DNA of 64,000 bases, taken from IMG/VR virus record IMGVR_UViG_2788500181_000007, one strand, 5' to 3'. Positions 39,162 through 41,090 of this stretch are shown piece by piece (position 1 is the stretch's first letter; each line of letters opens with the position of its first letter). This DNA is from an uncultured virus (IMG/VR IMGVR_UViG_2788500181_000007) (taxonomy: Duplodnaviria > Heunggongvirae > Uroviricota > Caudoviricetes). The position numbers and the translations under genes are program-made. The notes under the pieces were generated by a model, which saw only the letters and a list, made by a program, of their open reading frames with translations, was not told the origin of the DNA and ran no database searches.

Positions 39162-39457
39162 GTTACCCAGTGGAATTTGGGGATTTCTCTTTCGTATCCG
39201 TCGCTGTCGTACATACCTGACCAGTTTTCGATGTGTTCTGCGTGCAACACATCGTTGAATGTGGCCATTAGTAGGTGTTGTTCGTTTGTCCATTTCTTGT
39301 TACTTGCGGGTAAGGTGTCGCGATACTTTTCTACGGCACGCTTAAATGCCCAGTAGTTGTCGCGTAGCTCAAGTTGATCTTCGTTGATTGCGTCGCAGAG
39401 TACTTGTCGTGCCCAGAACTTTAAGTTTGAGCTTAGTCGTGTTTCCATTGTGTCCAT
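39158..39457 (-). CDS. Hypothetical protein
   Basis: 99-aa ORF preceded by GAAAGGA. Confidence 0.6.
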   Translation of the reverse strand: MDTMETRLSSNLKFWARQVLCDAINEDQLELRDNYWAFKRAVEKYRDTLPASNKKWTNEQHLLMATFNDVLHAEHIENWSGMYDSDGYEREIPKFHWVT

Positions 39458-39485
39458 GTCTAGTTAATCCTTTCTGTTAGTTGGT

Positions 39486-39522
39486 AAAAAAAAACCCGCC
39501 AGCCCCAAACAGGGCTGACGAG
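39486..39522 (-). terminator. Rho-independent terminator downstream of the ncRNA locus
   Basis: CTCGTCAGCCC...GGGCTGGCGGG plus T9. Confidence 0.8.
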
Positions 39523-39531
39523 TAGGTGGCG

Positions 39532-39681
39532 TTACGGGTGAAACTCTAACGCTAAGTACCATTCGTACCTAGCAACCATATTTTCCATGAACCTAAGTCC
39601 ATCTTCNCCTAGGAACGGGGTTTTATAATGCATTTCAAGCGCGAGCTTGAAGTTTTCGTATGTTTCTTTGTTTATTAGCAT
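39532..39681 (-). CDS. Small hypothetical protein (49 aa, MLINKETY...)
   Basis: ATG 4 nt after the CCA of the tRNA-like RNA; ends before the terminator. Confidence 0.45.
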   Translation of the reverse strand: MLINKETYENFKLALEMHYKTPFLXEDGLRFMENMVARYEWYLALEFHP

Positions 39682-39685
39682 AAAG

Positions 39686-39800
39686 TGGCTTCGCGCGCAG
39701 GTATCGAACCTGCCCCAACCCAAAGCGTCGCAACGCTCGCAGATCTGTAACTCTGCGGGGTGGTATCGCCCGTGTCTTACAGGACACTCGAATCGCGAAG
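39686..39800 (-). ncRNA. tRNA-like RNA (115 nt): acceptor-like stem, T-arm and CCA with a non-canonical core
   Basis: CTTCGCG/CGCGAAG-CCA; GCAGG-TTCGATA-CCTGC; three internal hairpins; complementary loops CTGTAA/TTACAG. Confidence 0.7.
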
Positions 39801-39809
39801 ATAGTAAAG

Positions 39810-40347
39810 TGGTGCGGGGCAGGAGCTTGGTAGCCTGCCATCCGATGTTAGTAACTAATTTTATGCGACTTGCGGGAGGATTGAGCAGTCGCCTGCCGTA
39901 CCTCCAACGGAATACTGAACAATTAATTGTTTAGTTCTTAGTGTACCTAAGACCGTACCTCTCGACCCCGCTACGGGATGCTTCCGCCTTTCCTCTGCCA
40001 CATGGCTGTCGTACTCGGTGCTTAACATGCTTTGCGTTAGCTCGGCGTGAGAGTGCAATGTTAGTTATTAACTCGAAACCCGATCTGATGTACCCATGTT
40101 CCATTGGTAGCGTAACCTCGAGAACCCTTCCGCGAAGAAGGCAGATCAACTTGTGCTCGCATGCCATCAGCGTGGCATGTTTACGAGCGTCCGCGTACGA
40201 TCGACTAGAACGACCGTACAAAGTGAAGCAACTTTACTTCGTTGGTTTGGCTAACCAAATCCCAAGCGAGGAATTTCTGAGATCCAAAGGATCGAAGAAA
40301 AGGACGAAGGAGCTTCAAAGAAGAAACTGAGGAAATACGAGCCCCAC
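39810..40347 (-). ncRNA. Large structured ncRNA (~538 nt) ending in ACCA, family unknown; 5' end tentative
   Basis: 7-bp closing stem GTGGGGC/GCCCCGC plus A-CCA; more than ten hand-identified helices; no credible ORF. Confidence 0.6.
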
Positions 40348-40510
40348 CATAGTTTTCGGGCAACCTGACGGTTTTGGTTTTTTTGGATTTCTTCTCCGCA
40401 TCGCTAGGAATGTTCGCATGATAGTACCCTAGCCGATCGTACAGGAGACAAATAACGTTGACTGCGGGGCAAGCGGTTGTCGGAAGACGGTATCTTGAGT
40501 AAAGTTGGGG

Positions 40511-40756
40511 ATGCCAGCGAAGAAAAAGCGAAACTACAAAAAAGAGTACAAGAGCTACCACGCTAAGCCTAAGCAGAAGAAAAGGAGGGCTCAACGCAAC
40601 TCCGCTAGGTCGAAGATGGTAAAGGCGGGGAAAGTCCGCAAAGGCGACAAAAAAGACGTCGACCACAAGGATCGGAACACCGCTAACAACAAAAGATCGA
40701 ACCTGAGGGTCACATCCCGGGCCAAGAACCGAGGATACGCTCGGAAGAAACGGTAG
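40511..40756 (+). CDS. Small basic HNH endonuclease-like protein
   Basis: DVDHKD.N..NN..SNLRV....NR. Confidence 0.8.
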   Translation: MPAKKKRNYKKEYKSYHAKPKQKKRRAQRNSARSKMVKAGKVRKGDKKDVDHKDRNTANNKRSNLRVTSRAKNRGYARKKR

Positions 40757-41059
40757 TTTTACGTTTCTGTAACGTTTTAAAAAGGAAAAACGTAAAGGCT
40801 TACCCTGCTGTCACGCAGTAACTTAGGGCATAGCTTTACGTTTTTACGTTTTTTCCGGCGAAAAGATATTTTAAATCTTCTATTCCTTTATACACCTTCT
40901 CCTCTTACCCTTCTTTCTTTTATTATTATACTTATAATACTTTTATTAAGATAAAAACGTAAAAACGTAAAGGTAAGTTGTAAGTTCCTGCCTGCAAACA
41001 ACTTGACTATTTACGTTTCTCTCTACAAAAACGTAAAATCTTTACGTTTTAAACGTTAA
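40757..41059. repeat. Putative replication origin: TTTACGTTT/AAACGTAAA iterons around an AT-rich core
   Basis: Nine exact copies plus degenerate ones in both orientations; AT-rich centre ~40860-40950; directly upstream of the replication operon. Confidence 0.7.
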
Positions 41060-41090
41060 GCTTTCCGGCGTTGCTATACAAAATATATCA

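What the first reader, a model, noticed from the sequence alone, without database searches (positions are those of the whole stretch)
39810..40347. Large CCA-ending structured ncRNA of unknown family in the phage control region
Seen: about 540 nt with no credible ORF, dense with helices on the minus strand. GTGGGGC (40347) pairs with GCCCCGC followed by A-CCA, a 7-bp acceptor-like stem. Nested pairings include TGAAGC/GCTTCA around CTTCGT/ACGAAG around GATCC/GGATC and TTGGTT/AACCAA; GTACGGTCG/CGATCGTAC (G-U only on minus); GCTCG-CATGCCA/TGGCATG-CGAGC; GATCTG/CAGATC; TAACAT/ATGTTA; TCTTAG/CTAAGA; GCGACT/AGTCGC. Two adjacent loops are complementary (GGAGG/CCTCC), and TTTCCTC/GAGGAAA and GCTTGG/CCAAGC could pair at long range. 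Known: phages carry large ornate RNAs (GOLLD, ROOL) next to tRNAs, and tmRNAs. Inference: it lacks tmRNA and RNase P signatures, so it may be a new giant tRNA-mimic RNA, perhaps a decoy for host anticodon nucleases or a scaffold.
Basis: partly seen in the sequence, partly recalled or inferred. Interest (0 to 1): 0.9.

Follow-up and report, generated by a model that had tools for sequence, protein, structure and literature searches.

The report
Abundant new structured RNA in marine phage
An uncultured marine phage carries a roughly 500-base, highly folded non-coding RNA that matches no known RNA family, turns up in sea-water RNA libraries from several studies, and ends in a tRNA-like stem; its job is unknown.

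Summary
RNA-library contigs from 4 of 4 runs laid (4 studies) lie wholly inside 39813-40310. Two of them stop at 40310, not 40347.

A syntenic relative, IMG/VR contig G001, keeps a 385-415-nt core at 77% nucleotide identity. That is the best-conserved DNA segment between the two phages. The consensus fold has 104 pairs: 17 compensatory, 7 one-sided, 0 broken. Wobble asymmetry places the RNA on the minus strand.

Rfam gives nothing, and default ARAGORN finds no tRNA or tmRNA. A 96-codon frame is open but does not evolve like a gene: 1 synonymous against 22 non-synonymous changes, and 31 of 85 codons are phase-shifted.

The terminal stem is GCGG (40194-40191) with CCGC (39817-39814). It covaries with G001 and abuts a hairpin followed by ACCA. 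The proposed GTGGGGC partner at 40347 is unsupported.

The RNA is missing from 23 of 24 related phage records searched. I read it as a new family of large, stable phage RNA. The tRNA-like 3' end is an inference and the function is unknown.

The parts
39810..40310 (-). Whole RNA as far as the evidence reaches, about 500 nt. The 5' end is near 40310 and the 3' end at or near the ACCA at 39813-39810.
   Evidence: RNA-library contigs span 39813-40310 (X7, 498 nt), 39891-40310 (X5), 39849-40301 (X16) and 40053-40281 (X15). Each contig matches over its whole length. The minimum-free-energy fold is -162.6 kcal/mol, z -2.76.
40226..40310 (-). Lineage-specific 5' domain: CUUCGU/ACGAAG enclosing the GAUCC and UUGGU hairpins.
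   Evidence: Fold (z -2.99). It cannot be aligned with G001, which has a 95-codon lipoprotein-like ORF there. Variant X16 changes at 40238 and 40246 keep their pairs as G.U. The 40259/40260 swap breaks two pairs of one helix predicted from this sequence alone (mapped by hand).
40195..40219 (-). Hairpin H0, GUACGGUCG-loop-CGAUCGUAC, directly 5' of the closing stem.
   Evidence: 8 pairs in the alignment with G001, 3 changed on both sides and kept. X16 40201 A>G keeps the pair as U.G (by hand).
40191..40194 (-). 5' strand of closing stem P1 (GCGG).
   Evidence: Pairs with 39814-39817. C-G in the window becomes G-C in G001. The same G-C state is implied by the translation P0002.
40155..40188 (-). 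Hairpin H2, GCUCG-CAUGCCA / UGGCAUG-CGAGC.
   Evidence: 12 pairs: 3 compensatory, 1 one-sided, 0 broken.
40082..40147 (-). Domain closed by GAUCUG/CAGAUC. It holds hairpin H3 (40124-40142) and an invariant palindrome CUCGAG (40117-40122).
   Evidence: H3 has 7 pairs: 2 compensatory and 3 one-sided. The closing helix is replaced by CUGAG/CUUAG in G001 (by hand) and is present in the single-sequence fold. CUCGAG is unchanged between variable flanks.
40061..40077 (-). 5' strand of long-range helix P5.
   Evidence: Pairs with 39841-39858. 15 pairs, 7 compensatory, 0 broken.
39951..40057 (-). Most conserved core (88-94% identity), including a 31-nt block at 39951-39981 that is identical in G001.
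   Evidence: Identity per 50 columns. Helices CUCUC/GAGAG, CGCC/GGCG and AUCCCG/CGGGGU are invariant between the window and G001. A C-G to U-A change in CUCUC/GAGAG is implied by P0002 (indirect).
39875..39956 (-). 3' arm cluster: ACGG/CCGU enclosing UCUUAG/CUAAGA and ACUAAACAA/UUGUUCAGU, then GGAGG/CCUCC enclosing GGCAG/CUGCU.
   Evidence: 1, 1 and 2 compensatory changes respectively, 0 broken.
39859..39869 (-). Invariant single-stranded GUCGCAUAAAA between variable flanks.
   Evidence: Alignment. It could pair with AUGUGGC (about 39997-40003) over 7 bp, both invariant, so this is untested.
39841..39858 (-). 3' strand of long-range helix P5.
39818..39839 (-). Terminal hairpin GGCAG(GCU)-ACCA-(AGC)UC-CUGCC. 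It lies one base after P5 and directly abuts the P1 3' strand.
   Evidence: It is identical in G001, so the pairing is untested by covariation. It lacks the T-loop consensus.
39810..39817 (-). P1 3' strand CCGC (39814-39817), then A (39813) and CCA (39810-39812).
   Evidence: Covariation with 40191-40194. The longest RNA contig ends at 39813. CUUU follows in both phages.

Best explanation
This is the gene for a stable, abundant, highly structured non-coding RNA of about 500 nt, read from the minus strand (about 40310 to 39810). It sits at the head of the leftward gene block of an uncultured marine podovirus-like phage.

Shown:
- A 385-415-nt core (40219/40194 to 39810) is shared with one syntenic relative.
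- The core folds into a closed multi-domain structure: a 4-bp closing stem P1, a 15-bp long-range helix P5, and about 18 further helices.
- It belongs to no described RNA family and is not a protein gene.
- It is an accessory gene that most relatives lack.

Inferred:
- The 3' end imitates the acceptor/T-arm minihelix of a tRNA. P1 (4 bp) would stack on the adjoining 5+3-bp hairpin, about 12 bp in all, followed by A-CCA.
- Host tRNA 3'-end enzymes would then define and repair that end. These are an endonuclease cut in the CUUU just downstream, exonuclease trimming, and the CCA-adding enzyme.
- This would help the RNA resist decay and accumulate.

Guessed: the conserved body acts in trans early in infection, as a protein-binding or self-assembling scaffold or decoy.
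For: Expression:
- 14 RNA runs among the 20 rows that hold part of the stretch, from 10 studies.
- In 4 of 4 RNA runs laid (4 studies), whole contigs of 229-498 nt lie inside 39813-40310. Two stop at 40310. DNA contigs L007 and L008 run on through both ends.

Structure:
- RNAalifold on the window plus G001 gives 104 pairs: 17 compensatory, 7 one-sided, 0 broken.
- In a test that does not use G001 to draw the structure, the window's own minimum-free-energy pairs were checked in G001. 18 of 23 doubly changed pairs stay paired on the minus strand, against 9 of 15 on the plus strand.
- The single-sequence fold of 39810-40310 recovers P1, H0, H2, P5 and the terminal hairpin.

Strand: of the 12 listed differences in variant X16, 5 fall in supported helices. 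All 5 keep the pair, and 4 of them would become C.A on the plus strand (and by hand).

Conservation:
- At 76.8% over 401 nt, this is the highest identity among the 11 DNA segments alignable between the two phages.
- Neighbouring proteins are 35-59% identical.

Not coding:
- Of 85 codons, 31 are phase-shifted.
- In the other 54 there is 1 synonymous against 22 non-synonymous differences.
- Differences by codon position are 13/13/10.

No known family:
- Rfam gave 0 matches at gathering score in the window and in 5 related loci.
- At E up to 10 it gave only noise.
- ARAGORN gave 0.

tRNA-like end:
- P1 covaries: C-G becomes G-C.
- The hairpin and P1 share one continuous 3' strand.
- ACCA-CUUU is conserved.
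Against: - Only two DNA sequences and one 97%-identical variant could be compared, so no R-scape-type statistic is possible. RNAalifold also picks pairs that fit.
- Slid-partner controls keep 39-55% of changed pairs, against 67% observed.
- Two adjacent X16 changes (40259/40260) break a helix predicted in the 5' domain.
- The libraries' strandedness is unknown, and contigs cannot give true ends.
- The longest RNA contig stops 3 nt before the CCA.
- RNA contigs run uninterrupted across the P1 5' strand in all four runs. The RNA therefore keeps a 116-nt 5' extension that a tRNA-like substrate of RNase P would lose.
- The terminal hairpin has no T-loop motif and no sequence variation.
- In a third lineage known only from translations (P0002, residues PPTHF), the 3' tail appears to carry one extra base, so ACCA may not be universal.
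- A 93-96-codon frame is open in both phages.
- No function was tested.
Confidence: 0.8

Rival explanations
1. It is the cleaved-off, structured leader of the leftward early operon. In this reading it is a cis-acting element, for example for antitermination or processing control. It piles up as a stable by-product rather than acting in trans.
For: It lies first in the leftward block, upstream of small ORFs, in both phages. No sigma-70-like promoter or intrinsic terminator flanks it: the scans found none at 40310 or at 39810. In G001 it directly follows an ORF, so it is probably co-transcribed.
Against: The genes downstream differ between the two phages: a 49-codon ORF in the window and an unrelated ORF in G001. 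Relatives with the same operon lack the RNA. RNA contigs end near the CCA and do not run into the next gene (a weak hint only). The conservation exceeds that of every protein gene at the DNA level.
Confidence: 0.1
2. It encodes a small basic protein of 93-96 residues from the TTG at 40221, and the RNA structure is incidental.
For: The frame is open in the window (39931-40221) and in G001 (L010:8906-9187). Gene callers made proteins of it in two further metagenome contigs, P0001 and P0002, at 52-56% identity.
Against: - 31 of 85 codons are out of phase between the two phages.
- There is 1 synonymous against 22 non-synonymous differences and no third-position excess.
- X16 differences inside the frame fall 4/1/3 on codon positions 1/2/3 (by hand).
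- Under neutral substitution the frame stays open in 7% of simulations, and the opposite strand also has a 98-codon open stretch.
- The start is TTG with no conserved Shine-Dalgarno sequence.
- No PHROG family matches.
- P0001 and P0002 were found because they are open, so they are not independent support.
Confidence: 0.05
3. It is a very divergent phage tmRNA, one-piece or permuted, that rescues stalled ribosomes.
For: - The size and topology are similar: 5' strand, large body, hairpin, 3' strand, ACCA.
- Two-piece tmRNAs are frequent in marine phages (PMC9004378, passages read).
- ARAGORN at 80% of its threshold proposes tmRNAs with the tag VQYSVGGTAGDCSILPQVA*.
- GUCGCAUAA is invariant.
Against: - ARAGORN at default and all Rfam tmRNA models find nothing.
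- The stem is 4 bp with G-C at the third pair, not G.U.
- There is no T-loop.
- The proposed tag lies in covarying helices, and its frame is broken by a 2-nt indel in G001.
- ARAGORN's candidates use a 5' or 3' tRNA half that G001 lacks, or that lies outside the RNA contigs.
Confidence: 0.04
4. It is a mobile RNA-gene cassette or the remnant of a self-splicing or ribozyme element that moved between phages, with no role for the phage.
For: Its distribution is patchy: 1 of 24 related records. Its DNA identity is higher than that of the flanking genes. The shared core begins and ends with CACUUU. A 17-nt imperfect direct repeat lies at 39813-39829 and 40463-40479.
Against: No intron or ribozyme model matches. 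No gene is interrupted. The repeats are short and could be chance. High abundance and strong constraint on unpaired bases point to use.
Confidence: 0.03

Closest known systems
GOLLD and ROOL RNAs (large ornate RNAs often carried by phages)
   Same: It is a large (400-800 nt), many-helix, phage-borne non-coding RNA of unknown function. An invariant palindromic loop (CUCGAG) could allow self-association, as in the RNA-only assemblies reported for these RNAs. I saw only the abstract of that report in the search listing (10.1101/2024.12.08.627333).
   Different: The Rfam models give no match, even at E up to 10. No tRNA genes lie nearby. The host environment is marine. Ending in ACCA after a closing stem is not a described feature of those families (this last point is recalled, not tested).
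tmRNA (SsrA), including the two-piece forms of marine phages
   Same: The length and order of parts are similar: 5' strand of a terminal stem, a large body with a long-range helix, a hairpin directly before the 3' strand, and ACCA. It is phage-encoded and expressed.
   Different: It lacks a G.U third pair, a 7-bp acceptor, a T-loop and a conserved tag frame. ARAGORN (default) and Rfam do not detect it. About 115 nt with two hairpins sit where the D-loop analogue would be.
tRNA-like 3' ends of other RNAs (plant-virus TLS, mascRNA) and the stable RNAs C and D of the phage T4 tRNA cluster (recalled, not looked up)
   Same: A non-tRNA molecule carries an acceptor-like helix plus CCA that cellular tRNA enzymes can recognise. 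In T4 these are stable phage RNAs of unknown role made early.
   Different: This RNA is far larger. Only the acceptor/T half is imitated, with no anticodon or D arm conserved. No processing or charging was tested.
Bacterial RNase P RNA
   Same: It has a similar size, its ends are brought together by a terminal helix, and it contains a GAGGAAAG-like string at about 39989-39996.
   Different: There is no match to any RNase P model. The string pairs differently here: GGCG pairs with the upstream CGCC.

Membership tests
tmRNA | Detected by ARAGORN or by the Rfam tmRNA covariance models | tested here: not met
   ARAGORN default found 0 genes (G001). Rfam gave no tmRNA match at gathering score or at E up to 10. 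Weak calls appeared only at -ps80.
tmRNA | 7-bp acceptor stem with G3.U70 and a T-arm with the T-loop consensus | tested here: not met
   P1 is 4 bp, GCGG/CCGC (GGGG/CCCC in G001), and its third pair is G-C. The hairpin loop is ACCA or CUACCAAGCU, not UUCRANU.
tmRNA | Conserved tag reading frame after a resume codon | tested here: not met
   The proposed tag overlaps the covarying helices GGAGG/CCUCC and GGCAG/CUGCU. A 2-nt indel in G001 shifts the frame.
tRNA | Cloverleaf detected by ARAGORN or Rfam RF00005 | tested here: not met
   0 tRNAs. No RF00005 match at E up to 10 in 39300-40800.
tRNA-like 3' domain (functional mimic, not a family) | About 12 stacked base pairs ending in N-CCA at the mature 3' end | tested here: inconclusive
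   4 bp of P1 plus a 5+3-bp hairpin on one continuous strand, then ACCA. P1 covaries and the hairpin is invariant. The RNA contig ends at 39813, 3 nt short.
tRNA-like 3' domain (functional mimic, not a family) | Recognition by RNase P, CCA-adding enzyme or an aminoacyl-tRNA synthetase | not testable with these tools
   This needs enzymology. Contigs that bridge 40194/40195 in 4 of 4 runs suggest that RNase P does not remove the 5' part.
GOLLD / ROOL | Match to the Rfam models | tested here: not met
   No match at gathering score or at E up to 10.
RNase P RNA | Match to the Rfam RNase P models (the P4 pseudoknot and conserved regions CR-I to CR-V) | tested here: not met
   No match.
Group I / group II introns | Match to the Rfam intron models; interruption of a gene | tested here: not met
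   No match. The region is intergenic in the window and follows a complete ORF in G001.
Protein-coding gene | Conserved frame with an excess of synonymous change | tested here: not met
   31 of 85 codons are phase-shifted. There is 1 synonymous against 22 non-synonymous differences, and codon positions are 13/13/10.

The most novel reading that the evidence does not exclude
It is the first member of a new class of large phage RNAs whose 3' end is a working tRNA acceptor mimic, matured, CCA-repaired and perhaps charged by host enzymes. Its ornate, strongly conserved body would do something not yet known for phage RNAs. It might soak up a host tRNA-directed defence or a translation factor, or self-assemble through the invariant CUCGAG palindrome into an RNA-only particle. 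It would be made in such amounts that it shows up in ocean metatranscriptomes from many studies.
Probability: 0.15. Interest if true: 0.85.

Novelty: new variant of a known kind. Interest (0 to 1): 0.68.

Why it matters
Few RNAs of this size and complexity are known from bacteria and phages, and nearly all were found by comparative genomics without proof of expression. This one already has both kinds of evidence: RNA-library contigs from several independent marine studies, and compensatory base changes.

It is the best-conserved DNA segment between two otherwise diverged phages, yet most of their relatives lack it. That pattern fits an accessory weapon or tool rather than housekeeping.

If the tRNA-like end works as such, it would link phage non-coding RNAs to the host tRNA-processing machinery in a new way. 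If the RNA self-assembles, it would add a marine example to the RNA-only complexes seen for GOLLD and ROOL. Either way it supplies a defined sequence and a testable fold.

Tried and rejected
Parts without read cover:
- In the RNA runs laid, 39300-39812 and 40311-40800 had no cover, apart from one low-depth contig at 40508-40693 in X5 (depth 5.82, against 308.6 for the RNA contig).
- By the tool's own rules this is not evidence that the flanks are silent, nor a measure of relative level. I use it only as the suggested DNA-contamination control.

Searches for more homologues that gave nothing usable:
- blastn 'distant' against 50,697 phage records: no match.
- 34-nt hairpin pattern in viral contigs: 0 hits.
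- An 18-mer gave 3 chance hits inside an unrelated coding region.
- A 20-mer in metagenome contigs gave two copies of the same phage (99.9% identical) and one chance hit, L009.
- A 20-mer in genome contigs gave one chance hit, L105.
- A two-motif pattern gave L107 (coding) and L108 (a different repeat region), with no match to the model.

Model R1 searches:
- No match in 10 loci around the GP88-like gene of relatives.
- No match in the syntenic gaps of L013 and L015 with filters off; best scores were 3.7 and 5.0 bits.
- No match in 23 of 24 whole records.
- The model rests on two sequences, so distant relatives could be missed.

Other dead ends:
- The ParB-like neighbour found no relatives in viral contigs.
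- No whole genome is held for the window.
- Earlier findings of this scan: none.
- The promoter-like motifs I suspected (CCAACTTTACT, GCCCCGCA) are not enriched in the window.
- I found no conserved partner for the terminal hairpin loop. GCUUGG occurs in the window only.

Rejected readings:
- Relaxed ARAGORN tmRNA calls were rejected.
- P0003 is an unrelated repetitive protein.
- Back-translating P0002 in the poorly aligned H0 and H3 parts gave apparent breaks. I disregard them because indels there are unknown. Two rows used a mis-typed helix coordinate.

Literature:
- The supplement of PMC10690425 gave no occurrence of the G001 contig name in the 6 files searched. 3 files were not searched, so the RNA could still be among that paper's 10,006 candidates.
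- Four searches turned up no description of this RNA. That is no proof that none exists.

Full report
**Setting**

The window is almost a whole genome of an uncultured marine phage.
- It carries a SU10-type portal, a capsid protein, a family A DNA polymerase, rIIA, a 2834-residue polyvalent protein and a GP88-like protein.
- Complete relatives are 68-69 kb.
- It has no close cultured relative: the terminase is under 28% identical and rIIA is 27% identical to any isolate.
- IMG/VR holds at least 100 contigs with a terminase 71-100% identical.
- Genes run leftward (minus strand) below about 39700 and rightward from 40505, where a small HNH-like gene starts.
- The finding lies in the gap between the two blocks.

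**Is there an RNA?**

- The stretch 39500-40600 is held in part by 20 listed runs from 10 studies, and 14 of them are RNA libraries labelled marine metagenome.
- I laid four RNA runs from four studies on 39300-40800. Each gave a contig that matches over its whole length and lies inside the finding:
  - 39813-40310 (X7, 498 nt, no differences)
  - 39891-40310 (X5, 420 nt)
  - 39849-40301 (X16, 13 differences)
  - 40053-40281 (X15)
- Two studies stop at the same base, 40310. DNA contigs L007 and L008 continue through it. The tool rates this as a weak hint of a real end.
- These are assembled contigs, so they cannot give the strand, exact ends or level. The runs were also chosen because they hold this stretch.
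- All four contigs bridge 40194/40195.

**Homologues**

- DNA pattern scans found one true relative, IMG/VR contig G001 (54 kb), in viral contigs. Scans of metagenome contigs and genome contigs returned only two copies of the same phage and chance hits.
- G001 is syntenic with the window. Its proteins are 31-79% identical, and the RNA sits at the same divergent junction (L010:8931-9323).
- The RNA aligns at 76.8% over 401 nt. That is the highest identity among the 11 DNA segments that align at all between the two genomes. Portal and terminase reach 70% and capsid 73%.
- Columns 151-250 of the alignment are 88-94% identical and include a 31-nt identical block.
- Homology starts at CACUUUG (40226) and ends at ACCACUUU (39806).
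- The 85 nt upstream in the window are replaced in G001 by a 95-codon lipoprotein-like ORF.
- A third lineage is known only as predicted 'proteins' P0001 and P0002, which are translations of the same region from other metagenome contigs. Their DNA could not be fetched.

**Structure**

- RNAalifold on the two sequences gives 104 pairs in about 20 helices: 17 changed on both sides and kept, 7 changed on one side and kept, none broken.
- RNAalifold favours such pairs, so I also ran a test that does not use G001 to draw the structure. I took the minimum-free-energy structure of the window sequence alone and asked what G001 does to its pairs.
  - On the minus strand, 23 pairs changed on both sides and 18 stay paired; 16 changed on one side and 8 stay paired.
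  - On the plus strand the figures are 9 of 15 and 6 of 27.
  - Slid-partner controls keep 39-55%.
- The single-sequence fold of 39810-40310 (z -2.76) recovers the same main helices.
- Variant X16 has 12 listed differences (mapped and by hand):
  - 5 lie in supported helices, and all 5 are A-U/G.U exchanges that keep the pair on the minus strand.
  - 4 of those 5 would give C.A on the plus strand.
  - 5 lie in unpaired positions.
  - 2 adjacent ones (40259/40260) break a helix that only the single-sequence fold of the 5' domain predicts. That helix is doubtful.
- Partial base information implied by P0002 agrees with P1 (C-G to G-C) and P5 (A-U to G-C). It also adds a C-G to U-A change in the otherwise invariant CUCUC/GAGAG helix. 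This is indirect and only usable where the translation aligns well.

**Architecture**, in window coordinates on the minus strand

- 5' domain, 40310-40226.
- Hairpin H0, 40219-40195.
- Closing stem P1, 40194-40191 with 39817-39814.
- Hairpin H2.
- A domain closed by GAUCUG/CAGAUC that holds an invariant palindrome CUCGAG (40117-40122).
- Long-range helix P5, 40077-40061 with 39858-39841 (15 bp, 7 compensatory changes).
- Inside P5 lie the conserved core and three arm clusters.
- An invariant single strand GUCGCAUAAAA.
- One base after P5 comes the terminal hairpin, 39839-39818. It runs straight into the P1 3' strand, then A-CCA (39813-39810), followed by CUUU in both phages.

**What it is not**

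- Rfam 15 gave no match at gathering score in the window or in five related loci. At E up to 10 only unrelated low scores appeared, the best being 20.5 bits against a threshold of 50.
- ARAGORN found no tRNA or tmRNA in the window, in G001 or in eight related loci.
- At 80% of its threshold ARAGORN proposes tmRNAs. I reject these for three reasons:
  - they borrow tRNA halves that G001 lacks or that lie outside the RNA;
  - the 'tag' sits in covarying helices;
  - a 2-nt indel shifts the tag frame in G001.
- The terminal stem has no G.U pair and the hairpin has no T-loop. This matters because two-piece tmRNAs are common in marine phages (PMC9004378, passages read).
- It is not a protein gene. 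A 93-96-codon frame is open in both phages, yet:
  - 31 of 85 codons are out of phase between them;
  - the other 54 show 1 synonymous and 22 non-synonymous differences, with codon positions 13/13/10;
  - a neutral simulation leaves the frame open 7% of the time;
  - the opposite strand has a similar open stretch.

**Distribution**

- Model R1 finds the RNA in 1 of 24 related phage records, G001 itself, and in 0 of the 3 that are at least 90% complete.
- It is absent from the syntenic gaps of L013 and L015 with filters off.
- These relatives are closer to the window than G001 is, judged by the GP88-like protein (65-67% against 59%).
- The RNA is therefore an accessory gene, either kept under strong constraint or exchanged between phages.

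**How it probably works (inferred)**

- The one mechanistic feature the sequence suggests is the 3' end. A covarying 4-bp stem continues on the same strand into a 5+3-bp hairpin, about 12 stacked pairs, followed by A-CCA. That is the geometry of a tRNA acceptor/T minihelix.
- AC|UUU just after the CCA fits the RNase E preference as I recall it (not looked up).
- I therefore propose that host tRNA 3'-end enzymes set and repair this end, and that this contributes to the RNA's stability.

Three points count against a full tRNA-like life cycle:
- The 116-nt 5' extension stays attached, since contigs bridge the site in 4 of 4 runs.
- The longest contig ends 3 nt before the CCA.
- P0002 implies an extra base in the tail of a third lineage.

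What the conserved body does is unknown. The high conservation of unpaired bases and the invariant palindrome are compatible with a protein-binding scaffold or self-association. No anticodon-arm mimic is conserved, so the decoy idea has no specific support.

**Verdict**

This is a genuine, expressed, structured RNA of a new family. The function is open. Its novelty lies in being a new family within the known kind of large phage-borne RNAs, with an unusual tRNA-like terminus.

Noticed in passing
window 39686-39799 (minus strand): Directly after the RNA lies a tRNA-like fragment. It has a canonical T-arm (GCAGG-UUCGAUA-CCUGC, 39713-39697), a 7-nt acceptor 3' strand, then G and CCA (39696-39686). 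A matching 5' strand UUCGCG(A) sits at 39799-39793, and a GUGUC-CUGUAAG-GACAC hairpin looks like a GUA anticodon arm. There is no D-arm. Neither ARAGORN (default) nor Rfam calls it, and it is absent from G001. It could be a decayed tRNA or tmRNA piece, or an attachment-site-like remnant. CUUUAUG follows its CCA, and the ATG at 39681 starts the next small ORF.
   Followed up: partly
window 39532-39681 (minus strand), terminator 39494-39523: A 49-codon ORF from the ATG at 39681 (MLINKETYENF...) looks protein-like and is followed by a strong intrinsic terminator. The ORF contains the window's single N at about 39607.
   Followed up: no
window 40750-41060: There is a dense set of direct and inverted copies of TTTACGTTTTT / AAAAACGTAAA (families D1, D5, D13 and pairs I1, I3, I8, I12, I13), between the HNH-like gene and the RuvC-like gene. 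It looks like an iteron or operator array, and so a more likely 'control region' or origin than the RNA itself.
   Followed up: no
window 39813-39829 and 40463-40479: The last 17 nt of the RNA before CCA (CAAGCUCCUGCCCCGCA) recur 650 nt upstream as CAACCGCUUGCCCCGCA, 82% identical. The conserved core also begins and ends with CACUUU. These may be traces of how the RNA gene was inserted, or chance.
   Followed up: no
L108:1480-1580 (IMG/VR contig, unrelated phage): An intergenic stretch holds four copies of GAGGTACGGRCGTGAG. The 9-mer GAGGTACGG also occurs twice in the RNA (39896-39904 and 39953-39961), against 0.29 expected in the window. Model R1 does not match L108, so it may be a shared short motif or coincidence.
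   Followed up: partly
L013:1200-1907 and L015:715-2635: Relatives that lack this RNA still have 0.7-1.9 kb without convincing ORFs at the same junction, with no Rfam match. Other, unrelated RNAs might occupy the same slot.
   Followed up: no
L010:8608-8895 (G001): G001 has a 95-codon ORF with a lipoprotein-type signal (…LLLACG…) immediately upstream of its copy of the RNA, where the window has its own 5' RNA domain.
   Followed up: no
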